The notes beneath the pieces are model-generated. The model did no database searches. It had not been told where the DNA came from and was given only the letters and a program-made list of their open reading frames with translations. Source: Escherichia coli (lineage in GTDB: Bacteria; Pseudomonadota; Gammaproteobacteria; Enterobacterales; Enterobacteriaceae). Taken from it: a stretch of DNA of 64,000 nucleotides. Numbering within the stretch: the first letter of the stretch is position 1; each line of letters starts with the position of its first letter. Location: NCBI RefSeq assembly GCF_044324785.1, contig NZ_CP172127.1; one strand, written 5' to 3'. The translations under genes were made by a program, and so were the position numbers. Shown piece by piece: positions 38,806 to 57,351 of this stretch.

Positions 38806-38831
38806 GGTTGTTACCTCGTTACCTTTGGTCG

Positions 38832-38868
38832 AAAAAAAAGCCCGCACTGTCAGGTGCGGGCTTTTTTC
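38832..38868 (-). terminator. thr operon attenuator (leader terminator)
   Basis: Minus-strand AAAAAGCCCGCACCTGACAGTGCGGGCTTTTTTTT between thrL and thrA. Confidence 0.85.
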
Positions 38869-38885
38869 TGTGTTTCCTGTACGCG

Positions 38886-38954
<69 letters not shown>

Positions 38955-47972: not shown

Positions 47973-49910
47973 TCAGTAACGACGTCCCCATTCCGTGGCG
48001 CTCATCAATGTCGGTTTATCCCCCATGAAATAGCGGTAGTAAGCGTCATAAGCCAGCACGTTCTTCACATAACCGCGCGTCTCGGAGAACGGAATACTCT
48101 CGACAAATGCCACTGCGTCGATACGCCCGGCGCTGTTGCCAAGCCAGGTTCGCACCCGCCCTGGTCCGGCGTTATAAGCTGCTGAGGAGAAAATACGGTT
48201 ATTACCAAACTGCTGATAAACATATTGCAGGTAACTGGTGCCAATGTTGATGTTCGTTTCCGGATCCAGCAATTGTCCTGGGCTGCTATAACCAGGAATA
48301 GAGAACATCTTCACCGTATGGGTCGCCGTGCCCGGCATAATCTGCATCAGGCCGCTGGCCCCTACCGGTGATTTCACTTTCGGATTCCAGGCACTCTCCT
48401 GACGGGCAATCGCCATCGCATAGCTTTGCGGGATCTCCTTCCCACTGGTGTAACGTTTGAAAAGATCGTTGTAGGCCAGCGGGAATCTCTCTTCCAGATG
48501 ATCCCAAAGCTTCCCGGCGATCGTTGCCTGAACGCTAAGATCCCACCATTGGTTATTGAAAGCATACCGAGCCAGTTGCGCCTGCTCTGTTTTTGACTTG
48601 CTCTTCACCAGATTGGCCCACTCGCTACGCGCGGTATTATCGAGATTCCAGTACATCAACTCGCGCACGCGCGCCATCTCCGGCCCCTGAGTCAGGGCGC
48701 TGTCAACATTCTGCGGCGCTTTATCAATCTTCAGCTCATACTCTTCACCGATGCGTTGTGCTGCAACCATCGGGTAGAAACCACGCTGTTGCATGAGTTG
48801 ATGCAAAATCTCTTTTGCTTCAGCTTCACGTCCGCGTTCCAGCAGTAAATCCGCCTGCCAGTAACGCCATTCATCTTTCTCTTTCGCCTCCATCGGCAAA
48901 CGCGCCAGCCAGGTATTCAGGCCGCGACGATCGCCGGTGCCAAGCGCCATTCGCACACGGCGTTCAATAAGCGAAGTAGATTGCGAACGCATAATGGCGT
49001 CATCACGCCATTTCGCCTGTTCGTCGGTGACATCGTTGCCCATCAAACGCCAGGCGACGATATCGCGCAGCTCCTGAATCTGATCTTCATTAAGCTGCTG
49101 CGCCTGGGCAAGCGACGGGATCATCAGCCGTGCATTTTCAGCATCCTGCCGCGCCACACTGGCAAACGCCACCGCCGCCATTTGACGGGTAAAATCGGTC
49201 GCTCCGGTTGTACGCGCGAAGGTCAGTACCGTATTAGGATTGTTCGCCAATGAAATAATTGCCGAGGCGATAGTCTGGTAATCGGCAGGCATCTGCCCTG
49301 CCAGCACTGTTACGAGGCCAGTGTTACCCGCTTTCATCGCCAGACGGATACGCTCTAAATACGCCAGCGGATCTTGTTTACCTGACGCACGCCAGACGCT
49401 AAATAACTTGTCACAGGCGTTAGGCTGGCTCTTGCCGGTTAGCCACAGCTCTTTCGCCCCTTGCCAGGCTTCTTCACTCTGCCCGGTGTTCCATTTTGCA
49501 TAGTAGTAATTACATTGCGCTTCGGTAGTTCCGGGCTTTTCCGGGCTAAAGGCTAACAAGCCACGCCAGTCTTCACGCCGCGCCAGTTCATTGACGAAAC
49601 GAGATTGCAGCGTGCGAGCGGGAGGAAGCGTGGGGTTAGCGCGAACAAAGTTAGTGACCGTCACCGCCGGTTGATTCATCAGATCATCGGTGATCTGGCG
49701 GTATTCCAGGTAGGGATAAAGCGGATAATCCTTCAGTCCAGGCATCATTTGTTCGACCACATCCATCTGTCGATTATCCCAGGCCTGCTTGATTTGCGCG
49801 TAACGGCTACGCTGCTCATCCAGTGAGTCGGCTCGCGCCACGCTGCTGACCGTCAGCAGACAGACACCGGCAGCCAACAGCCGCCAGGTAACTTGTTTGG
49901 CTTTTTCCAC
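47973..49910 (-). CDS. slt: Soluble lytic murein transglycosylase
   Basis: ORF 47973..49940; probable GTG start giving (M)EKAKQVTWRLLAAGVCLLTVSSVARA (645 aa). Confidence 0.95.
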   Translation of the reverse strand: MEKAKQVTWRLLAAGVCLLTVSSVARADSLDEQRSRYAQIKQAWDNRQMDVVEQMMPGLKDYPLYPYLEYRQITDDLMNQPAVTVTNFVRANPTLPPARTLQSRFVNELARREDWRGLLAFSPEKPGTTEAQCNYYYAKWNTGQSEEAWQGAKELWLTGKSQPNACDKLFSVWRASGKQDPLAYLERIRLAMKAGNTGLVTVLAGQMPADYQTIASAIISLANNPNTVLTFARTTGATDFTRQMAAVAFASVARQDAENARLMIPSLAQAQQLNEDQIQELRDIVAWRLMGNDVTDEQAKWRDDAIMRSQSTSLIERRVRMALGTGDRRGLNTWLARLPMEAKEKDEWRYWQADLLLERGREAEAKEILHQLMQQRGFYPMVAAQRIGEEYELKIDKAPQNVDSALTQGPEMARVRELMYWNLDNTARSEWANLVKSKSKTEQAQLARYAFNNQWWDLSVQATIAGKLWDHLEERFPLAYNDLFKRYTSGKEIPQSYAMAIARQESAWNPKVKSPVGASGLMQIMPGTATHTVKMFSIPGYSSPGQLLDPETNINIGTSYLQYVYQQFGNNRIFSSAAYNAGPGRVRTWLGNSAGRIDAVAFVESIPFSETRGYVKNVLAYDAYYRYFMGDKPTLMSATEWGRRY

Positions 49911-50120
49911 AAGCGCATCCTCTAAGTGTAAATACATCAATGCAGCGTCATGCCGCGTAATAGATTTATGCTAACCAGTCATTGCCGTTTACGCCACGTT
50001 ACGGACACTTTTTTACTTTTATCGGGAGGGTGATCGACCGGCTGGGATTAGATAAGGAAACAGGCTACACTTCGCCTTTGAAAACTCATCATCACGATAA
50101 ACATAGAGGCGAAGTCCAAC

Positions 50121-51788
50121 GTGGCTCAATTCGTTTATACCATGCATCGTGTCGGCAAAGTTGTTCCGCCGAAACGTCATATTTTGAAAAACATCTCTCT
50201 GAGTTTCTTCCCTGGGGCAAAAATTGGTGTCCTGGGTCTGAACGGCGCGGGTAAGTCCACCCTGCTGCGCATTATGGCGGGCATTGATAAAGACATCGAA
50301 GGCGAAGCGCGTCCGCAACCGGATATCAAGATTGGTTATCTGCCGCAGGAACCGCAGCTGAACCCGGAACACACCGTGCGTGAGTCCATTGAAGAAGCGG
50401 TTTCTGAAGTGGTTAACGCCCTGAAACGCCTGGATGAAGTGTATGCGCTGTACGCCGATCCGGATGCCGATTTTGACAAGCTGGCCGCTGAACAAGGCCG
50501 TCTGGAAGAGATCATTCAGGCTCACGACGGTCACAACCTGAACGTTCAGCTGGAGCGTGCGGCGGATGCGCTGCGTCTGCCGGACTGGGACGCGAAAATC
50601 GCTAACCTCTCCGGTGGTGAGCGTCGTCGCGTGGCGTTGTGCCGCCTGCTGCTGGAAAAACCAGACATGCTGCTGCTCGACGAACCGACCAACCACCTGG
50701 ATGCCGAATCCGTGGCCTGGTTGGAACGCTTCCTGCACGACTTCGAAGGCACCGTGGTGGCGATTACCCACGACCGTTACTTCCTTGATAACGTTGCAGG
50801 CTGGATCCTCGAACTGGACCGCGGTGAAGGTATTCCGTGGGAAGGCAACTACTCCTCCTGGCTGGAGCAGAAAGATCAACGTCTGGCGCAGGAAGCTTCA
50901 CAAGAAGCTGCGCGTCGTAAGTCGATTGAGAAAGAGCTGGAGTGGGTACGTCAGGGAACTAAAGGCCGTCAGTCGAAAGGTAAAGCACGTCTGGCGCGTT
51001 TTGAAGAGCTGAACAGCACCGAATATCAGAAACGTAACGAAACCAACGAACTGTTTATTCCACCAGGACCGCGTCTTGGCGATAAAGTGCTGGAAGTCAA
51101 CAACCTGCGTAAATCCTATGGCGATCGTCTGCTGATTGATGACCTGAGCTTCTCGATCCCGAAAGGAGCGATCGTCGGGATCATCGGTCCGAACGGTGCG
51201 GGTAAATCGACCCTGTTCCGTATGATCTCTGGTCAGGAACAGCCGGACAGCGGCACCATCACTTTGGGTGAAACGGTGAAACTGGCATCGGTTGATCAGT
51301 TCCGTGACTCAATGGATAACAGCAAAACCGTTTGGGAAGAAGTTTCCGGCGGGCTGGATATCATGAAGATCGGCAACACCGAGATGCCAAGCCGTGCCTA
51401 CGTTGGCCGCTTTAACTTTAAAGGGGTTGATCAGGGTAAACGCGTTGGCGAACTCTCCGGCGGTGAGCGCGGTCGTCTGCATCTGGCGAAGCTGCTGCAG
51501 GTTGGCGGCAACATGCTGCTGCTCGACGAACCAACCAACGACCTGGATATCGAAACCCTGCGCGCGCTGGAAAACGCCCTGCTGGAGTTCCCGGGCTGCG
51601 CGATGGTTATCTCGCACGACCGTTGGTTCCTCGACCGTATCGCCACGCACATTCTGGATTACCAGGATGAAGGTAAAGTTGAGTTCTTCGAAGGTAACTT
51701 TACCGAGTACGAAGAGTACAAGAAACGCACGCTGGGCGCAGACGCGCTGGAGCCGAAGCGTATCAAGTACAAGCGTATTGCGAAGTAA
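50121..51788 (+). CDS. ettA: Energy-dependent translational throttle protein EttA (ABC-F ATPase)
   Basis: 555-aa ORF MAQFVYTMHRVGKVVPPKRHILKNISLSFFPGAKIGVLGLNGAGKSTLLRIMAGIDKD; two ABC domains; intact. Confidence 0.97.
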   Translation: MAQFVYTMHRVGKVVPPKRHILKNISLSFFPGAKIGVLGLNGAGKSTLLRIMAGIDKDIEGEARPQPDIKIGYLPQEPQLNPEHTVRESIEEAVSEVVNALKRLDEVYALYADPDADFDKLAAEQGRLEEIIQAHDGHNLNVQLERAADALRLPDWDAKIANLSGGERRRVALCRLLLEKPDMLLLDEPTNHLDAESVAWLERFLHDFEGTVVAITHDRYFLDNVAGWILELDRGEGIPWEGNYSSWLEQKDQRLAQEASQEAARRKSIEKELEWVRQGTKGRQSKGKARLARFEELNSTEYQKRNETNELFIPPGPRLGDKVLEVNNLRKSYGDRLLIDDLSFSIPKGAIVGIIGPNGAGKSTLFRMISGQEQPDSGTITLGETVKLASVDQFRDSMDNSKTVWEEVSGGLDIMKIGNTEMPSRAYVGRFNFKGVDQGKRVGELSGGERGRLHLAKLLQVGGNMLLLDEPTNDLDIETLRALENALLEFPGCAMVISHDRWFLDRIATHILDYQDEGKVEFFEGNFTEYEEYKKRTLGADALEPKRIKYKRIAK

Positions 51789-51876
51789 TGCGTAAAATGC
51801 CGGATGCGGCGCGCCAGCATCGCATCCGGTATTAGTTAAATGATTAGTCCCCGGAAAAAGGCAGAATTTTCTTTAA
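51015..51876. repeat. Direct repeat copy A (ettA 3' end + REP + antitoxin-gene 3' remnant)
   Basis: About 860 bp that recur, with scattered substitutions and one 13-bp indel, at 55917..56776. Confidence 0.8.
51798..51830. repeat. REP element downstream of ettA
   Basis: GCCGGATGCGGCGCGCCAGCATCGCATCCGG palindrome; duplicated at about 56683..56715. Confidence 0.5.
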
Positions 51877-51943
51877 GCGTATTAGCTCAGATGCGGACTG
51901 ACACCTCAAATCAAGCGGGAACTCATGGTTCCCGCTTAACGTT

Positions 51944-52831
51944 TTATTCACCGCGCAGGATCTGGCGGAAATGGGAAACCAGCGGACGTTGGTTGGCTTT
52001 ATGCCAGGCTGCCCATAATTGCGTTGAATAATTCATCCACGGCAATTCACGTAATACCACCCCTTCCGGCGCATTATGACGCAGACTATGTTGAATTAAG
52101 GCCAGACCTAATCCCGCAGCGACCAGACCTAATGCCGTGAGGGGTTCACCCGCTTCCAGGCGAATATCAGGATTAAACCCGGCGTTAACACAGGCGGCGA
52201 CAAAATGATCGCGAGAATGCGCATCGTCGTTATGAATCACCGCAATCCACTGCTCATCGCCAAGTTGTGACGCGACAAGGTTTTCCTCCTGCGCCAGAGG
52301 ATGATTTTGCGGTAAGGCCAACAACATTCGATCATCCAGAACCTGAATATATTCCAGATCCTGCTCGCTGTCGGCGGGCGGCGTATCGACCAGAGAAAAA
52401 TCGAGACTGCGCTGGCGCAGGCCTTCAATCTGGGTAGCCGGTGGTTGGCTGTAAAGTGCGATATGCACATTCGGACGCGATACACGTAACGTACGTAGCG
52501 CCGTAGAAAGCACACCGGAATGCATGGCGTTTTCGATATAGCCAATACACAAGCCACCATCTTCCCCCCGTCCCAGGCGTTTGCCTAACGACTCCAGGCG
52601 GTTGGCGTGTGTCAGCAACGAACGTGTTTCGGCAAGGAATGTCTGTCCATCAGCGGTCAGGCGAATGCGCTGCTGATTACGCTCAAACAGCGTCAGCCCC
52701 AGCCGTTCTTCCAGTTGTGCAATCTGGCGGCTCAGCGGTGATTGCGAGATATGTAATCGCTCGGCTGCGCGTCCCACGTGCTCTTCTTCTGCGACCACCA
52801 CGAAGTACTTCAGTTGGCGTAAATCAATCAT
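51944..52831 (-). CDS. LysR-family transcriptional regulator
   Basis: ORF 51944..52924; canonical LysR N-terminus from internal Met MIDLRQLKYFVVVAEEEHVGRAAERLHISQSPLSRQIAQLEERLG (295 aa); divergent from the adjacent oxidoreductase genes. Confidence 0.85.
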   Translation of the reverse strand: MIDLRQLKYFVVVAEEEHVGRAAERLHISQSPLSRQIAQLEERLGLTLFERNQQRIRLTADGQTFLAETRSLLTHANRLESLGKRLGRGEDGGLCIGYIENAMHSGVLSTALRTLRVSRPNVHIALYSQPPATQIEGLRQRSLDFSLVDTPPADSEQDLEYIQVLDDRMLLALPQNHPLAQEENLVASQLGDEQWIAVIHNDDAHSRDHFVAACVNAGFNPDIRLEAGEPLTALGLVAAGLGLALIQHSLRHNAPEGVVLRELPWMNYSTQLWAAWHKANQRPLVSHFRQILRGE

Positions 52832-52896
52832 GTTAGACCTCAAAGGACTTAAGTCAGACGAATTATGTCCTATCAAGTCACAACCTCGCAAGGTAT

Positions 52897-52912
52897 TGTG
52901 ATCCACGTCACA
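52897..52912. promoter_or_regulatory. Perfect TGTGA-N6-TCACA palindrome in the LysR/AKR divergent promoter region
   Basis: TGTGATCCACGTCACA in the 133-bp intergenic region; fits the CRP half-site consensus and also a T-N11-A LysR-type box. Confidence 0.3.
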
Positions 52913-52964
52913 GGGCGATAGCAAAAAAACGCCCTAACCCAAACCGAATAATTGAGGACATCTT

Positions 52965-53975
52965 ATGAGCATCAAAAATTTACTTCCCGGCAAAATTGGC
53001 TTAGGTGGCGCACCACTCGGCAACATGTTCCGTGCCATTCCGGAAGACGAGGCCCACGCCACCGTGAGCGAAGCCTGGAACCTGGGCGTGCGTTACTTTG
53101 ATACCGCGCCGCTGTACGGCTCTGGCCTTTCTGAAATCCGCATGGGTGAAGCGCTGTCTCAGTATCCACGCGATGAATACGTTCTGAGCAGCAAAGTCGG
53201 TCGCATCATGCTGGACGAAATGGAAGATCCGGCAAAACGTGATTTCGGTGAAAAAGGTGGCCTGTTCGAACACGGCCTGAAAAACAAAATTCTGAATGAC
53301 TACTCTGCTGACGCCACGCTGCGCTCGATTGAAGACAGCCTGAAACGCCTGAAAACAGACCGTCTGGATATTGTCTGGATCCATGACCCGGCGCAGGACT
53401 TCTACGGTGACAGCTGGCTGGAACAGTTCAACATTGCCCGTACCGGTGCGTTTCGTGCGCTGACGCGTTTGCGTGACGAAGGTGTGATTAAAGCCTGGGG
53501 ACTGGGTGTGAATCGCGTCGAACCTTGCGAACTGACGCTGGCGCTGGACGAACCGAAGCCGGATGCGTTCCTGCTGGCGGGGCGTTATTCCCTGCTGGAT
53601 CACGAACGTGCGCTGCAACGCCTGATGCCAGAAGCACTGGAACAGAACGTGGATATTGTTGTGGGCGGTCCGTACAGCTCTGGCGTACTGGCAGGCGGCG
53701 AGCACTTTGAATATCAGAAAGCTTCTGCGGCCATCCAGCAGAAAGTGGCGCAAATTAACACCATTGCCACACGTTTCAATGTGAACGTTAAAGCAGCTGC
53801 GCTGCAGTTCGCACTGGCAAACCCGGCCGTTGCGGCGGTTATTCCTGGCTCCAGCCGTCCTGGCCGTATGGCAGAAGATCTGGCTGCACTGAATGCGCCT
53901 GTTCCGGCTGAATTCTGGGCAGAAATGCGCCGTCAAAATCTGGTTGCGGAAAACGCTCCGCTGCCGACCCGTTAA
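52965..53975 (+). CDS. Aldo/keto reductase family oxidoreductase
   Basis: 336 aa, MSIKNLLPGKIGLGGAPLGNMF...YFDTAPLYGSG; AKR fold motifs. Confidence 0.85.
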   Translation: MSIKNLLPGKIGLGGAPLGNMFRAIPEDEAHATVSEAWNLGVRYFDTAPLYGSGLSEIRMGEALSQYPRDEYVLSSKVGRIMLDEMEDPAKRDFGEKGGLFEHGLKNKILNDYSADATLRSIEDSLKRLKTDRLDIVWIHDPAQDFYGDSWLEQFNIARTGAFRALTRLRDEGVIKAWGLGVNRVEPCELTLALDEPKPDAFLLAGRYSLLDHERALQRLMPEALEQNVDIVVGGPYSSGVLAGGEHFEYQKASAAIQQKVAQINTIATRFNVNVKAAALQFALANPAVAAVIPGSSRPGRMAEDLAALNAPVPAEFWAEMRRQNLVAENAPLPTR

Positions 53976-53994
53976 TCAACCTGGTGAGAAAACG

Positions 53995-54792
53995 ATGAAA
54001 CTGGATCTGACAGGTAAAGTCGCGGTAGTCAGCGGCTCAACCTCCGGCATTGGGCAGGGTATCGCCGCCGGACTGGCAAAAGCAGGCGCAACGGTGGTTG
54101 TCGTCGGCCGTAAACAGCGCGGCGTTGATGACGCCATGGCTGCGATTGCGGCACAAACTCCCACGGCGTCACTGCGTGGCGTGGTGGCCGACCTCAGCAC
54201 CGAAGACGGCGTGGCTGCGCTGATCGCTGCAGTCCCAACGGCTGATGTGCTGGTCAATAATCTGGGCATTTTTAACGATAAAGATTTCTTTAGCGTTCCG
54301 GATGATGAGTGGATGCACTTCTATAACGTCAACGTCCTCTCCGGCGTTCGTCTGGCGCGTCACTATGCGCCAGGCATGACGGAACAGGGCTGGGGGCGGA
54401 TTATCTTTGTCTCGTCCGAATCCGGCGTGGCAATCCCTGGCGACATGATCAACTACGGCGTCACCAAAGCCGCGAATCTGGCGGTTTCTCATGGTCTGGC
54501 GAAACGACTGGCGGGGACCGGTGTGACCGTCAACGCCATTCTGCCAGGGCCAACCTTTACCGATGGCCTGAAAGAGATGCTGGCGGATGCCGCTGCACAA
54601 TCGGGACGCAGTGCGCGTGAACAGGCCGATGAGTTTGTTAAAACCTCGCGTCCGAGCTCCATCATCCAGCGTGCGGCGGATGTGGAAGAAGTGGCGAATC
54701 TGGCGGTTTATCTCGCGTCACCGCTTTCCTCGGCAACCACAGGGGCAGCCCTGCGCGTCGATGGTGGCGTCGTCGACACCCTGACTATGTAA
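53995..54792 (+). CDS. Short-chain dehydrogenase/reductase (SDR)
   Basis: ORF 53893..54792; start MKLDLTGKVAVVSGSTSGIGQGIA (TGxxxGxG Rossmann motif) preceded by GGTGAG; 265 aa. Confidence 0.85.
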   Translation: MKLDLTGKVAVVSGSTSGIGQGIAAGLAKAGATVVVVGRKQRGVDDAMAAIAAQTPTASLRGVVADLSTEDGVAALIAAVPTADVLVNNLGIFNDKDFFSVPDDEWMHFYNVNVLSGVRLARHYAPGMTEQGWGRIIFVSSESGVAIPGDMINYGVTKAANLAVSHGLAKRLAGTGVTVNAILPGPTFTDGLKEMLADAAAQSGRSAREQADEFVKTSRPSSIIQRAADVEEVANLAVYLASPLSSATTGAALRVDGGVVDTLTM

Positions 54793-54817
54793 CCCTATAA
54801 ATTAAGAGAAAATTATC

Positions 54818-55234
54818 ATGGCTAAAACAACTGTATCGATCGAAATTCCGGCTTCTGCCGACGCCGTATGGCAATTGATGGGCGGCTTTGATGCGCTGCC
54901 AGACTGGCTGCCGTTCATCCCGAAAAGCGTGGTGACAGAAGGCGGTCGCGTTCGTTCGCTGACAACCTCTGACGGCGGCACTGTGGTTGAACGTCTGGAA
55001 GCGTTTGATAACCGTCAACGCAGTTATACCTATTCCATTATTCAAGCACCGTTCCCAGTGGTGGATTACCTCTCCACCATTACCGTTCATGAAACCGCCG
55101 ACAGCCAGGTTTCCCGTGTGGAATGGTTCGGTGAATTCACCCCGGTGAATGTGACGAACGAAGAGGCCGAAGCGCTGTTTACCGGCATCTATCGGGATGG
55201 TCTCAAGGCGCTGAAGGACAACTTTGTTGCCTGA
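54818..55234 (+). CDS. SRPBCC-superfamily (polyketide cyclase / Bet v1-like) protein
   Basis: 138 aa; family assignment from overall sequence character, moderate certainty. Confidence 0.6.
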   Translation: MAKTTVSIEIPASADAVWQLMGGFDALPDWLPFIPKSVVTEGGRVRSLTTSDGGTVVERLEAFDNRQRSYTYSIIQAPFPVVDYLSTITVHETADSQVSRVEWFGEFTPVNVTNEEAEALFTGIYRDGLKALKDNFVA

Positions 55235-55391
55235 TGCAATCGACAGGCGTCGGAACGTCCGGCGTCTGATTATTAACAAAAGCAGAATAGTCTATTGTCA
55301 TTTGTATCATTTATGTTATCAGGCAGCAGGCGTATTCTCTTCCCATCGCGTTAATAAACGCCAAACAATTAAGACACTCTGGAATATAAAC

Positions 55392-55604
55392 ATGAAAACG
55401 ATCATCGCAATTTTTACGGCTTCTCTTTTCTCTGTCGCGGCGTTTAACGCATCGGCGCAAAGCGTGACAGCAACCGGTACAACACTGGATTCTGCGGAAG
55501 CAGTTATTGCGCAGAAAGCGAAAGAGATGAACGCCTCTGAATACAAAATCACCAGCGCTCGCATGGGCAATACCGTCACCATGAGTGCCGAACTGTACAA
55601 ATAA
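55392..55604 (+). CDS. DUF1471 (YdgH/BhsA/McbA-like) small secreted stress protein
   Basis: 70-aa frame MKTIIAIFTASLFSVAAFNASAQSV...ASEYKITSARMGNTVTMSAELYK; signal peptide and family-typical C-terminus. Confidence 0.7.
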   Translation: MKTIIAIFTASLFSVAAFNASAQSVTATGTTLDSAEAVIAQKAKEMNASEYKITSARMGNTVTMSAELYK

Positions 55605-55628
55605 CCGCGCAAGGGACCCATTACGTAA

Positions 55629-55838
55629 TTTGCTAAATATGCGCTGAATGCGTTGCCATTAAAAAACCGTATTGTAATGCCACCGATGACACGTTCCCGT
55701 GCGGGTGACGTTGCGACTGACATGATGGCGGACTATTACGCGCAGCGCGCTAGTGCAGGACTTATCATCAGCGAAGGTACGCAAATCAGCAGAAGCGCTG
55801 CGCATAATTTTCCACGGCCCGCTGATTTACTCCGGTAA
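55629..55838 (+). pseudogene. Remnant of an Old-Yellow-Enzyme (NemA-like) NADH:flavin oxidoreductase gene
   Basis: Frame encodes PLKNRIVMPPMTRSR...MMADYYAQRASAGLIISEGTQIS, resembling an OYE N-terminus, then loses similarity and stops; no in-frame ATG. Confidence 0.55.
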
Positions 55839-55916
55839 ATAGACCAAAGCGCGCGCAGAAGCGGACTGTCAGATTTGATTGCATTCTGGCTACGCAACTG
55901 GTCGGTTGGAGTATGA

Positions 55917-56677
55917 AGCACCGAATATCAGAAACGTAACGAAACCAACGAACTGTTTATTCCACCTGGACCGTGTCTGGGCGACAAAGTGCTGGAAGTC
56001 AGCAACCTGCGTAAATCCTATGGCGATCGTCTGCTGATTGACTCCCTGAGCTTCTCGATCCCGAAAGGAGCGATCGTCGGGATCATCGGTCCGAACGGTA
56101 CGGGCAAATCGACGTTGTTCCGTATGATCTCTGGTCAGGAACAGCCGGACAGCGGCACCATCACTCTGGGTGAAACGGTGAAACTGGCATCGGTTGATCA
56201 GTTCCGTGACTCAATGGATAACCGCAAAGCCGTTTGGGAAGAAGTTTCCGGCGGGCTGGATATCATGAAGATCGGCAACACCGAGATGCCAAGCCGCGCC
56301 TACGTTGGCCGCTTTAACTTTAAGGTAAACGCGTTGGTGAACTTTCCGGTGGTGAGCGCGGTCGTCTGCATCTGGCGAAGCTGCTGCAGGTTGGCGGCAA
56401 CATGCTGCTGCTCGACGAACCAACTAACGACCTGAATATCGAAACCCTGCGCGCGCTGGAAAACGCCCTACTGGAGTTCCCGGGCTGTGCGATGGTTATC
56501 TCGCACGACCGTTGGTTCCTCGACCGTATCGCCACGCACATCCTGGACTACCAGGATGAAGGTAAAGTTGAGTTCTTCGAAGGTAACTTTACCGAGTACG
56601 AAGAGTACAAAAAACGCACGCTGGGCGCAGACGCGCTGGAGCCGAAGCGTATCAAGTACAAGCGTATTGCGAAGTAA
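55917..56677 (+). pseudogene. Truncated, frameshifted second copy of the ettA 3' half
   Basis: Matches ettA from about 51015 onward with scattered substitutions and a 13-bp deletion near 56320 that breaks the frame; no 5' half. Confidence 0.85.
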
Positions 56678-56776
56678 TGCGTAAAATGCCGGGTGCGGCG
56701 CGCCAGCATCGCATCCGGTATTAGTTAAATGATTAATGGGAGGCAAGTTCCCGGAAAAAGGCAGGATTTTCTTTAA
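55917..56776. repeat. Direct repeat copy B (ettA' + REP + 3' end of intact antitoxin gene)
   Basis: Counterpart of 51015..51876. Confidence 0.8.
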
Positions 56777-57017
56777 TTGTGGCAAGTACTTTTGCAGCCA
56801 ATCCCGTAGGATTTCTTCGCTTCGATTCCCAGCTTTTAATGGTATCCACACTGGTTCCCAGAGCTTTTGCCATCTCACTTTGAGAAACGTTGAGTTGCTC
56901 ACGAATAGCTTTAACATCCGCAATTTCGTAGCGGGTCACCCGTGCAGGTTCTTTTAAACCTTGTTTAATCTCGACAGCCTCTTCCAGAGAGGTTTTCAAC
57001 TCATCAAAAAAACTCAT
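56733..57017 (-). CDS. HTH (XRE-like) antitoxin of a type II toxin-antitoxin pair
   Basis: 94 aa; C-terminal helix-turn-helix (LNVSQSEMAKALGTSVDTIKSWE); start 1 bp after the toxin stop. Confidence 0.7.
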   Translation of the reverse strand: MSFFDELKTSLEEAVEIKQGLKEPARVTRYEIADVKAIREQLNVSQSEMAKALGTSVDTIKSWESKRRNPTGLAAKVLATIKENPAFFRELASH

Positions 57018-57018
57018 T

Positions 57019-57351
57019 TTATACCTCGCCTTTGAGCAGTTTCGTCAACTTCTTTAGTTGAGCTTTTTCCGTATCTGTCAGACTATCTTTGGCATTTTTC
57101 GGATAGGCCATAATCAAATAAATAATCTCTTCCGTCGCCAGAAAGTAAATTATTCTGACACTGCCACTTTTTCCCTGTGAACCCGCAGCCATTCGGACTT
57201 TACGCAATCCACCAGTCTGCTGAATGAGATCACCTTTATCGGGAGTTCCGATGAGTTCTTTTTGTAATTCCTTTAATTCATCATCGGTTGCAATCTGCTT
57301 GATCTGACGCGTAAACATTGGCGTCTCTATAAATATTATCGCCTTGCCCAT
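57019..57351 (-). CDS. RelE/ParE-superfamily (HigB-like) toxin, putative
   Basis: ORF 57019..57429; likely start MGKAIIFIETPMF preceded by GGGAGG (about 110 aa); toxin-first gene order. Confidence 0.6.
   Translation of the reverse strand: MGKAIIFIETPMFTRQIKQIATDDELKELQKELIGTPDKGDLIQQTGGLRKVRMAAGSQGKSGSVRIIYFLATEEIIYLIMAYPKNAKDSLTDTEKAQLKKLTKLLKGEV

What the first reader, a model, noticed from the sequence alone, without database searches (positions are those of the whole stretch)
51944..55838. Cargo: LysR-regulated oxidoreductase cassette (AKR, SDR, SRPBCC, DUF1471, OYE remnant)
A LysR regulator is divergently transcribed from a tight co-directional set: aldo/keto reductase, short-chain dehydrogenase (20 bp gap), SRPBCC-fold protein, a DUF1471 small secreted stress protein and a decayed Old-Yellow-Enzyme gene. 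As far as I recall this cassette is absent between ettA and nadR in K-12. Three NAD(P)H-dependent reductase families under one LysR regulator suggest detoxification or catabolism of a reactive carbonyl, quinone or small aromatic compound, but the substrate cannot be inferred from sequence.
Basis: partly seen in the sequence, partly recalled or inferred. Interest (0 to 1): 0.55.

Follow-up and report, generated by a model that had tools for sequence, protein, structure and literature searches.

The report
LysR-controlled reductase operon islet in E. coli
This is a real, intact accessory gene block found in about 9% of E. coli genomes: a LysR regulator facing an aldo-keto reductase, short-chain dehydrogenase and SRPBCC operon that occurs with its control DNA in many bacterial phyla, ordinary in kind, with an unknown substrate.

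Summary
Between ettA and nadR lie a LysR gene (51944-52831, minus strand), an aldo-keto reductase (AKR), a short-chain dehydrogenase (SDR), an SRPBCC protein, a DUF1471 protein and a dead Old-Yellow-Enzyme (OYE) gene. K-12 lacks the block. 482 of 5426 complete E. coli genomes carry it, always once and always on the chromosome.

Across 80 genomes from several phyla, only LysR | AKR-(SDR)-SRPBCC stays together. About 70 nt of promoter/operator DNA aligns in fixed register from E. coli to Streptomyces. DUF1471 and OYE are facultative neighbours found only in Enterobacterales, and are probably a separate transcription unit. No transporter or downstream enzyme travels with the module.

The five intact genes are under strong purifying selection (dN/dS 0.02-0.16).

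It is not cargo of a mobile element. No integrase or transposase is present. In 481 of 482 carriers the block simply interrupts the nadS antitoxin gene. This window has a rare derivative with an 860-bp ettA duplication.

A perfect CRP-type palindrome (TGTGA-N6-TCACA) sits in the promoter region in Enterobacteriaceae.

The most likely role is an inducible, self-contained NAD(P)(H)-dependent conversion of one small carbonyl or lactol compound. The substrate remains unknown. Interest is low to moderate.

The parts
51789..51876 (+). DNA downstream of ettA, ending in a 31-bp remnant of the 3' end of nadS (51846-51876). This is the left junction of the insertion.
   Evidence: 51846-51876 matches 56746-56776 (nadS 3' end) at 94%.
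51877..51912 (.). 36-bp filler of unknown origin at the left edge of the inserted block.
   Evidence: matches only E. coli carrier loci. Homology to E69 and E. whittamii starts at 51911-51913.
51913..51937 (.). 11-bp-stem hairpin just beyond the LysR stop codon, terminator-like. It travels with the block.
   Evidence: stem of 11 pairs; included in the segment shared with L016 and L017.
51944..52831 (-). LysR-type transcriptional regulator, 295 aa.
   Evidence: Ortholog Pfam HTH_1 + LysR_substrate. dN/dS 0.02 against C. farmeri.
52832..52964 (.). Divergent promoter/operator region. It holds the conserved elements AGACC(Shine-Dalgarno of LysR)-N5-GGACTTAAGT ... ATTATGTC ... AAGTC ... TATTGT, and a perfect TGTGA-N6-TCACA palindrome at 52897-52912.
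   Evidence: gap-free alignment across phyla; the palindrome is unique in the window (0.09 expected) and invariant in Enterobacteriaceae loci while its spacer varies.
52965..53975 (+). Aldo-keto reductase, 336 aa, of the L-galactose / D-threo-aldose 1-dehydrogenase-like branch.
   Evidence: Catalytic D46, Y51, K77 and H140 are invariant.
53995..54792 (+). Classical short-chain dehydrogenase/reductase, 265 aa. Motifs: G14-x3-G18-x-G20, R39, N88-N-L-G, S141, Y154, K158.
54818..55234 (+). SRPBCC (Polyketide_cyc2) protein, 138 aa.
55392..55604 (+). DUF1471 / YdgH-BhsA-McbA-type small secreted protein, 70 aa, with a signal peptide ending ASA|Q. Probably its own transcription unit.
   Evidence: Follows a 157-bp gap. 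Absent from Enterobacter, Serratia and all non-Enterobacterales loci.
55620..55864 (+). Old-Yellow-Enzyme (NemA-like) pseudogene: about 170 bp of the 5' part joined to 74 bp of the 3' part.
55865..55916 (.). 52-bp right-edge filler. Its start still resembles the OYE 3' region; the rest is of unknown origin. This is the right end of the inserted block.
55917..56776 (+). Second, decayed copy of the ettA 3' end plus downstream DNA. It is 5'-truncated, with a 13-bp deletion and frameshift. It forms a direct repeat with 51015-51876.
   Evidence: Shared only with strain 06-00048 among 5426 genomes.
56733..57017 (-). nadS (NadS-family HTH antitoxin), intact here. This is the target gene that the block interrupts in other carriers.
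   Evidence: NadS, 1.2e-54.
57019..57351 (-). RelE/ParE-family toxin gene paired with nadS.
   Evidence: RefSeq annotation of the collinear loci.

Best explanation
The core is a self-contained, inducible small-molecule redox module.

- A LysR-type regulator binds a conserved operator in the 133-bp divergent intergenic region. On sensing a small effector it probably activates the AKR-SDR-SRPBCC operon.
- The AKR has an intact D-Y-K-H tetrad. The SDR has an intact N-S-Y-K set and an Arg after beta-2, which is typical of NADP(H) users. Together they would carry out NAD(P)(H)-dependent oxidation or reduction of a carbonyl, alcohol or lactol group on one compound or one narrow class.
- The SRPBCC protein is the constant, tightly linked partner of the AKR. 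It most likely binds or presents the hydrophobic substrate, or catalyses an accessory isomerisation.
- Nothing else is needed or carried along: no transporter and no downstream pathway. The product is therefore probably just less toxic, or feeds into general metabolism.
- DUF1471 and, where intact, OYE form a neighbouring stress-type unit. They are not part of the conserved module.
- In E. coli the block is a non-mobile accessory islet. It arose when a roughly 4-kb Escherichia/Citrobacter-type segment was inserted by illegitimate recombination into nadS, next to nadR.

Shown: gene content, intactness, selection, synteny, operator conservation and the insertion anatomy. Inferred: regulation by LysR, operon structure, the role of SRPBCC and the substrate class.
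For: Synteny:
- tblastn over 80 genome loci plus metagenome loci found an AKR directly upstream of the SRPBCC gene in about 74 of 84 loci, and a divergent LysR in about 60.
- The SDR lies between AKR and SRPBCC in Enterobacterales, Pseudomonas and Acinetobacter.
- No other gene cluster is shared across genera.

Conservation:
- The AKR is 68-76% identical and LysR 62-75% identical between E. coli and Streptomyces, Bacillus or Burkholderia.
- About 70 nt of intergenic DNA aligns without gaps across phyla, with fixed motifs and a TAnnnT at a constant position.
- dN/dS is 0.02-0.16 for all five genes against C. farmeri, Klebsiella, E69 and E. whittamii, with no internal stops.
- All five genes are annotated intact in 40 of 40 sampled E. 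coli carriers.

Enzyme features:
- Catalytic residues are intact.

Operon structure:
- Gaps within the operon are short, 19 and 25 bp.

Insertion anatomy:
- nadS 3' and 5' remnants flank the block in strain N3 and in 481 of 482 carriers.
- No mobility genes lie between ettA and nadR.
Against: - No experiment or paper on this module was found.
- Transcription units, the LysR effector and the enzyme activities are all untested.
- The promoter scan did not call an AKR promoter above background.
- A classical T-N11-A LTTR box could not be pinned down.
- The nearest solved AKR relatives are dehydrogenases acting on sugars, so the direction of the reaction and the 'detoxification' flavour are open.
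- The CRP-type palindrome hints at carbon-source control rather than stress control.
- Some Pseudomonas loci have SDR-SRPBCC without AKR or LysR, and Bacillus loci lack LysR, so the module is not invariant.
Confidence: 0.7

Rival explanations
1. The module is catabolic. The AKR is a sugar or lactol 1-dehydrogenase (D-threo-aldose / L-fucose / L-galactose / pyridoxal-type) that oxidises a hemiacetal to a lactone. The SDR and SRPBCC process the product. Expression is under catabolite (cAMP-CRP) control plus a substrate-sensing LysR.
For: - The best solved relatives of the AKR are L-galactose dehydrogenases (1.8e-29 to 9e-19).
- Automated source names for orthologs are 'D-threo-aldose 1-dehydrogenase'.
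- A perfect TGTGA-N6-TCACA palindrome, the core of the CRP consensus, lies at 52897-52912. It is the only one in 64 kb (0.09 expected). Its arms are invariant and its spacer variable in all Enterobacteriaceae-type loci.
Against: - No transporter, lactonase, dehydratase or aldolase is linked to the module in any genus.
- Similarity to L-galactose dehydrogenase is distant, and the names are automated.
- The palindrome is absent outside Enterobacteriaceae. It overlaps or abuts the conserved TAnnnT, which would suggest repression rather than activation.
- CRP binding is untested.
Confidence: 0.2
2. One reading: all the reductases (AKR, SDR, OYE) plus DUF1471 form one LysR-controlled electrophile/quinone detoxification regulon, carried as cargo of a mobile island.
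For: - The genes are co-directional and adjacent.
- DUF1471 relatives (BhsA, RclB, YhcN) are stress proteins.
- OYE/NemA enzymes reduce electrophiles (family knowledge).
- OYE is adjacent in C. farmeri, Yokenella and E69.
Against: - OYE and DUF1471 are missing from most loci that keep the LysR-AKR-(SDR)-SRPBCC unit.
- OYE is a heavily decayed pseudogene in all E. coli carriers examined, while the others stay under selection.
- A 157-bp gap and a weak hairpin separate DUF1471 from SRPBCC.
- There is no integrase or transposase. The only long repeat is a duplication of ettA present in 2 known genomes.
Confidence: 0.07
3. In E. coli the block is a functionless hitch-hiker that is slowly decaying, like its OYE gene.
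For: OYE is dead, the block lies in a rearrangement-prone interval, and 91% of E. coli genomes do without it.
Against: dN/dS is 0.02-0.07 even between the window and the close E69 copy. All five genes are intact in the sampled carriers, at 98.4-99.5% identity.
Confidence: 0.03

Closest known systems
LysR-type regulator with a divergently transcribed target operon (e.g. BenM/CatM-ben/cat, CbnR, AlsR-alsSD)
   Same: A 295-aa LTTR with full-length matches to LTTR models and structures. It is divergent from its presumed target, with a short shared control region containing conserved repeated half-sites.
   Different: It reaches no curated equivalog cut-off (best is AlsR at 223 bits against a cut-off of 430). 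The effector and target chemistry are unknown. The operator stays in fixed register across phyla, which is unusually wide.
AKR sugar 1-dehydrogenases (plant L-galactose dehydrogenase; bacterial D-threo-aldose/L-fucose 1-dehydrogenase, EC 1.1.1.122)
   Same: These are the closest solved relatives. They share the AKR tetrad and the N-terminal GxGxAPLGN / FDTAPxYG motifs. Orthologs are auto-named D-threo-aldose 1-dehydrogenase.
   Different: The relationship is distant (E about 1e-29). No fucose or galactose pathway genes are nearby. The AKR is always paired with an SRPBCC protein, which is not a feature of those enzymes.
Bacillus cereus-group 'XoxI' / Q6HG14 SRPBCC proteins (PDB 3cnw, 3f08) and B. 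anthracis SDR 3t4x; SDR 8g9m
   Same: Direct homologs with solved structures (4e-52, 1e-50, 1e-70 and 1.5e-137). Bacillus loci also have AKR-SRPBCC adjacent.
   Different: They carry only generic or uninformative molecule names and I found no paper on them, so they add a fold but no mechanism.
Plant PR10/Bet v 1 proteins working with AKR and SDR enzymes in morphine biosynthesis (neopinone isomerase and thebaine synthase with codeinone reductase and salutaridine reductase; PMC11522673)
   Same: The same three folds (SRPBCC-superfamily protein, AKR, SDR) act on one hydrophobic carbonyl substrate series. The PR10 proteins there act as enzymes (neopinone isomerase, thebaine synthase) alongside the reductases.
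   Different: This is an analogy of mechanism only. There is no close homology, and the kingdom and chemistry differ. It is offered as a model for what the SRPBCC partner might do.
NemR-nemA-gloA and RclR-rclABC type electrophile/oxidant response units of E. coli
   Same: They contain an OYE (NemA) or a DUF1471 protein (RclB) with a dedicated regulator. The remnant OYE here matches the NemA model.
   Different: The regulator family differs. OYE is dead here, and DUF1471 is not consistently linked to the module.

Membership tests
LysR-type transcriptional regulators (LTTR) | About 300 aa with an N-terminal winged HTH (PF00126) and a C-terminal LysR substrate-binding domain (PF03466) | tested here: met
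   Full-length hits to many LTTR models (AlsR 5e-66, PRK09986 9e-61) and structures (7w06 4e-37, BenM, CatM, CbnR). The 97%-identical C. farmeri ortholog carries both Pfam domains.
LysR-type transcriptional regulators (LTTR) | Divergent arrangement with the regulated operon, and an operator with dyad/T-N11-A-type sites in the shared region | tested here: inconclusive
   The divergent arrangement was seen in about 60 loci. Conserved repeated (T/C)A(A/T)GTC elements are present, but no clean T-N11-A dyad was defined and binding is untested.
Aldo-keto reductase superfamily | PF00248 (alpha/beta)8 barrel with a catalytic Asp-Tyr-Lys-His tetrad | tested here: met
   PF00248 is on orthologs. D46, Y51, K77 and H140 are invariant in alignment A4.
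D-threo-aldose / L-galactose 1-dehydrogenase (EC 1.1.1.122 / 1.1.1.316) | Demonstrated NAD(P)+-dependent oxidation of L-fucose, L-galactose or D-arabinose at C1; usually linked to lactonase and dehydratase genes | tested here: not met
   Similarity to L-galactose dehydrogenase structures is only distant. No pathway genes are linked in any genus. Enzyme activity is not testable here.
Classical short-chain dehydrogenases/reductases | A glycine-rich TGxxxGxG-type motif, an NNAG motif and the N-S-Y-K catalytic residues | tested here: met
   G14STSG18IG20, N88NLG, N113, S141, Y154 and K158 were read from the translation. 230 SDR models hit. PDB 8g9m at 1.5e-137.
SRPBCC superfamily (Polyketide_cyc2) | A helix-grip fold domain of about 140 aa matching PF10604 | tested here: met
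   Pfam 1.9e-30 over residues 1-136. PDB 3cnw and 3f08 at about 1e-51.
DUF1471 / YdgH-BhsA-McbA family | A small secreted protein with a C-terminal PF07338 domain | tested here: met
   Pfam 3.3e-11 over residues 24-70. Weak hits to BhsA, RclB, YhcN and YbiJ, all below cut-offs. The signal peptide was read by eye only.
Old Yellow Enzyme (functional ene-reductase) | A full-length PF00724 TIM barrel of about 365 aa with the FMN-binding and catalytic residues | tested here: not met
   Only about 47 N-terminal residues and a short C-terminal piece remain. There is a 686-bp internal deletion, a premature stop and a 3' truncation relative to L003 and L016.
Integrative mobile element / genomic island with cargo | An integrase or transposase, short att-type direct repeats, and often a tRNA or gene-3'-end target | tested here: not met
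   No such ORF lies between ettA and nadR. The flanking repeat is an 860-bp duplication seen in only 2 genomes. The usual form has nadS remnants on both sides.
cAMP-CRP-regulated promoter | A CRP site (core TGTGA-N6-TCACA) at a functional distance from a promoter, and binding by CRP | tested here: inconclusive
   A perfect core lies at 52897-52912, unique in the window (0.09 expected) and conserved in Enterobacteriaceae. Its position relative to either promoter is non-canonical or unknown, and binding is untested.

The most novel reading that the evidence does not exclude
AKR-SRPBCC may be an obligate two-protein catalytic pair, with the SRPBCC protein acting as an isomerase or substrate-presenting subunit for the reductase. 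Together with its dedicated LysR sensor and operator, the pair would have spread as one unit through at least four phyla because it deals with one specific, widespread and still unidentified small molecule. That would make it an uncharacterised, near-universal sense-and-convert pathway.
Probability: 0.2. Interest if true: 0.55.

Novelty: new member of a known kind. Interest (0 to 1): 0.3.

Why it matters
For E. coli biology this is a minor accessory trait. About 9% of genomes, and apparently most Klebsiella, carry an extra inducible oxidoreductase operon.

The wider value is as a clean target for function discovery:
- It is a compact sensor-plus-enzymes unit.
- Solved structures exist for relatives of two of the three operon proteins: the SDR (8g9m, 1.5e-137; 3t4x) and the SRPBCC protein (3cnw, 3f08).
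- Its regulator and operator are conserved from Enterobacteria to Streptomyces.
- No substrate is known.

A promoter-reporter screen could reveal the inducer directly. That would also assign a function to a widespread SRPBCC subfamily.

The locus also gives a tidy example of how an islet inserts into a toxin-antitoxin gene and is then remodelled by recombination.

Tried and rejected
- Literature searches for the module, the ettA-nadR interval, 'XoxI' and D-threo-aldose dehydrogenase with LysR found nothing relevant.
- NCBIfam gave no equivalog-level assignment for any of the four intact cytoplasmic proteins.
- I looked for further genes linked to the module by clustering all flanking ORFs from 84 loci. 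Only genus-level (Pseudomonas) synteny appeared, and nothing was shared across genera.
- I tested whether a hairpin in the putative 5' UTR (52912-52935) is supported by covariation. Only one pair showed double changes and the covariation term was +0.41, so it is not established.
- The consensus promoter/terminator scan was at background level. It found no AKR promoter and only a candidate LysR promoter.
- Rfam found no RNA family in the interval.
- I considered Citrobacter as the direct donor. This was rejected in favour of an Escherichia-lineage source: E69 and E. whittamii copies are 97.8% and 94.4% identical, against 88.5% for C. farmeri.
- The short fillers at both edges of the block match nothing else fetched.
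- I did not run structure prediction. Close homologs of the SDR and SRPBCC proteins are already solved, and that has not revealed a function.

Full report
**What is there**

The window is E. coli chromosome. In window orientation the order is:
- slt, 47973-49940 (-)
- ettA, 50121-51788 (+)
- a LysR-type regulator, 51944-52831 (-)
- an aldo-keto reductase (AKR), 52965-53975 (+)
- a short-chain dehydrogenase (SDR), 53995-54792 (+)
- an SRPBCC protein, 54818-55234 (+)
- a DUF1471 protein, 55392-55604 (+)
- an Old-Yellow-Enzyme (OYE) remnant, about 55620-55864
- a second, decayed copy of the ettA 3' end, 55917-56677
- nadS, 56733-57017 (-)
- a RelE/ParE toxin gene, 57019-57351 (-)
- nadR and radA

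- LysR gives full-length hits to LTTR models and structures.
- The AKR orthologs carry PF00248, and the Asp46-Tyr51-Lys77-His140 tetrad is invariant.
- The SDR has its glycine-rich motif, NNLG and Ser141/Tyr154/Lys158. It is close to PDB 8g9m at 1.5e-137.
- SRPBCC hits Pfam Polyketide_cyc2 at 1.9e-30, and PDB 3cnw and 3f08 at about 1e-51.
- DUF1471 hits Pfam YdgH_BhsA-like at 3.3e-11.
- The OYE remnant hits the NemA model at 2.9e-15 over its first 47 residues.

Two small corrections apply. The true LysR start is the ATG at 52831, as in RefSeq annotations. The AKR-SDR gap is 19 bp.

**Distribution in E. coli**

The block (51900-55650) is present once, on the chromosome, in 482 of 5426 complete E. 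coli genomes. Identity to the window is 98.4-99.5%. All five intact genes are annotated in every one of 40 records sampled across the ranking. K-12, O157:H7 and most others lack it. RefSeq names the genes only generically.

**What the conserved unit really is**

Orthologs of the SRPBCC protein are common in Citrobacter, Enterobacter and Klebsiella (thousands of contigs), and in Yokenella, Trabulsiella and Yersinia frederiksenii. Gene neighbourhoods show:
- LysR | AKR-SDR-SRPBCC in C. farmeri, with DUF1471 and an intact 365-aa OYE
- the same in Klebsiella, with DUF1471 but no OYE
- the same in Enterobacter, with neither

More distant SRPBCC relatives, about 55% identical, sit directly after an orthologous AKR that is 68-74% identical. 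One of these has a divergent LysR and no SDR.

A scan of one genome per species returned 80 loci. tblastn of the E. coli proteins against them showed three forms:
- The four-gene form in Enterobacterales, Pseudomonas and Acinetobacter.
- The three-gene form, LysR | AKR-SRPBCC, in Streptomyces, Micromonospora, Saccharopolyspora, Burkholderia/Paraburkholderia, Stenotrophomonas and a Rhizobiales genome.
- AKR-SRPBCC without LysR in the Bacillus cereus group, Paenibacillus, Sporosarcina, Duganella and Mucilaginibacter.
- A few Pseudomonas loci have only SDR-SRPBCC.

The AKR is 68-76% identical and LysR 62-75% identical to the E. coli proteins across these phyla. Clustering all flanking ORFs found no other gene family linked across genera. 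No transporter, lactonase, dehydratase or other pathway enzyme travels with the module.

DUF1471 follows the module only in some Enterobacterales. An intact OYE is adjacent only in C. farmeri, Yokenella and a divergent Escherichia genome (E69). There it starts 18 bp after DUF1471, which suggests a separate DUF1471-OYE unit.

**Control region**

The LysR-AKR intergenic DNA is much more conserved than the surrounding third-codon positions within Enterobacterales. More strikingly, its first 70 nt or so align without gaps from E. coli to Pseudomonas, Burkholderia, Stenotrophomonas, Rhizobiales and actinomycetes. The pattern is AGACC (the LysR Shine-Dalgarno on the other strand)-N5-GGACTNAAGT-N4-C.AA.TA.GTC.T-N5-GTC, then a TAnnnT at a fixed distance.

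This is what one expects of an LTTR operator plus the target promoter's -10 element. It is the best available evidence that LysR controls the AKR operon, and that regulator, operator and enzymes move and evolve as one unit. I could not define a clean T-N11-A dyad, and the generic promoter scan was at background, so regulation remains inferred.

In the Enterobacteriaceae-type loci only, a perfect TGTGA-N6-TCACA palindrome (52897-52912) abuts the TAnnnT. It is the only such site in the 64-kb window (0.09 expected). Its arms are invariant and its spacer variable in Escherichia, Citrobacter, Klebsiella, Enterobacter, Trabulsiella, Yokenella, Yersinia and Raoultella. This is the core of the CRP consensus (established knowledge). 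Binding and the direction of any effect are untested.

**Selection**

Nei-Gojobori dN/dS for LysR, AKR, SDR, SRPBCC and DUF1471 is 0.02-0.16 against C. farmeri, Klebsiella, E69 and E. whittamii, with no internal stops.

The OYE gene, by contrast, is wrecked. Compared with intact copies in C. farmeri (L003) and E69 (L016) it lacks the start region and has a 686-bp internal deletion. It also has a TAC-to-TAG stop and a 13-bp deletion, and is cut off about 160 bp before the normal stop.

**How the block got here**

The block is 97.8% identical to a copy in 'E. coli' E69. There it lies after pitA-yhiN in DNA that is only about 93.5% identical to E. coli. It is 94.4% identical to a copy in E. whittamii in yet another context, and 88.5% identical to C. 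farmeri. The source is therefore an Escherichia-lineage copy.

In strain N3 the block sits between a 31-bp nadS 3' remnant and a 155-bp nadS 5' remnant. The partner toxin gene is deleted. It is a simple insertion into the nadS antitoxin gene, with short fillers of unknown origin at both edges. 481 of the 482 carriers share N3's right-hand (block-to-nadS) junction. Genomes without the block have either ettA-nadS-relE-nadR or no sequence matching the nadS end of the query (K-12-type hits). No integrase or transposase is present, so 'cargo' of a mobile element is not supported.

The window has a rare derivative. The same right end of the block (…GGAGTATGAAG) is joined to an internal point of a second ettA 3' copy, followed by intact nadS and relE. 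This creates an 860-bp direct repeat (51015-51876 and 55917-56776) with 29 mismatches, a 13-bp gap and an 11-bp gap. Only strain 06-00048 shares this junction among the complete genomes.

The break lies exactly where homology between a block-bearing chromosome and an ettA-nadS-relE-nadR chromosome ends. I therefore infer one-sided homologous recombination (anchored in nadS/nadR) with incoming DNA whose non-homologous tail was joined at the heterology border. This is inference only.

**Function**

The evidence supports an inducible, self-contained NAD(P)(H)-dependent conversion of a small molecule by AKR and SDR, with SRPBCC as the AKR's constant partner.

The substrate cannot be named. The nearest solved AKR relatives are plant L-galactose dehydrogenases, and automated names call orthologs D-threo-aldose 1-dehydrogenase. 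Together with the CRP-type site, this keeps a lactol/sugar-oxidising, catabolite-controlled role alive as the main rival. The lack of any linked transporter or downstream enzyme argues against a pathway.

As a mechanistic model for the SRPBCC partner, plant PR10 (Bet v 1-fold) proteins act as enzymes (neopinone isomerase, thebaine synthase) alongside AKR and SDR enzymes in morphine biosynthesis (PMC11522673). This is an analogy, not homology. No paper on the bacterial module was found.

**Verdict**

The interpretation needs narrowing in three ways:
- The unit is LysR | AKR-SDR-SRPBCC.
- DUF1471 and OYE are bystanders.
- There is no mobile element.

In kind it is an ordinary LTTR-controlled oxidoreductase operon that is already annotated generically. 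The notable points are the cross-phylum conservation of the whole unit, including its operator, and the constant AKR-SRPBCC pairing. Both make it a good but not surprising target for function discovery.

Noticed in passing
window 51015-51876 and 55917-56776: An 860-bp direct duplication of the ettA 3' end plus downstream DNA brackets the block (29 mismatches, a 13-bp gap and an 11-bp gap). The right copy is a truncated, frameshifted ettA pseudogene. Only one complete E. coli genome (06-00048) shares this junction; 481 of 482 carriers lack it.
   Followed up: yes
window 56733-57351; L001 8381-8517; L002 3830-4448: The nadS / RelE-ParE toxin-antitoxin pair next to nadR is variable among E. coli. 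The common form of the islet interrupts nadS, and the toxin gene is then missing. In this window an intact pair has been restored.
   Followed up: partly
window 52897-52912: A perfect CRP-core palindrome, TGTGATCCACGTCACA, lies in the LysR/AKR control region. It is the only one in the 64-kb window (0.09 expected). Its arms are invariant and its spacer variable in all Enterobacteriaceae-type loci, and it is absent in Serratia, Pseudomonas and actinomycetes.
   Followed up: partly
window 52832-52905 and the homologous intergenic DNA of L009-L092: About 70 nt of non-coding DNA between LysR and AKR aligns without gaps across Proteobacteria and Actinobacteria. That is unusually wide conservation for an operator/promoter.
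   Followed up: yes
window 52912-52935: A hairpin, AGGGCG-N12-CGCCCT, lies in the putative 5' UTR of the AKR operon. Pseudomonas has a different hairpin at the same place. The covariation test was weak (one pair with double changes).
   Followed up: partly
L015 (JAIJJM010000574.1, 'Collinsella sp.' MAG): This 2.1-kb contig encodes the E. coli SDR, SRPBCC and DUF1471 at 99-100% identity and includes the E. coli-specific right-edge filler. It is almost certainly a mis-binned E. coli contig.
   Followed up: partly
L016 8670-12377 (CP089930.1, 'E. coli' E69): Downstream of the intact-OYE copy of the block lies a 1235-aa helicase-like ORF matching the anti-phage ProA model (1284 bits, below the 1500 cut-off). 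The flanking pitA-yhiN DNA is only about 93.5% identical to E. coli, so the strain is a divergent Escherichia lineage.
   Followed up: no
L044 3921-7903 (Paenibacillus sp. BSR1-1): The AKR and AKR-SRPBCC genes are tandemly multiplied here, with three AKR copies and two SRPBCC copies in a row. Sporosarcina (L057) has SRPBCC-AKR-SRPBCC.
   Followed up: no
window 23553-23705, 38831-38950, 5290-5342, 25090-25167: Rfam hits elsewhere in the window: sok antitoxin RNA, thr operon leader, ES003 and tpke11 sRNAs. All are ordinary for this region of the E. coli chromosome.
   Followed up: no
window 14525-20948: A run of six co-directional ORFs (186, 234, 177, 227, 816 and 319 aa) lies on the + strand. 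I did not examine them.
   Followed up: no
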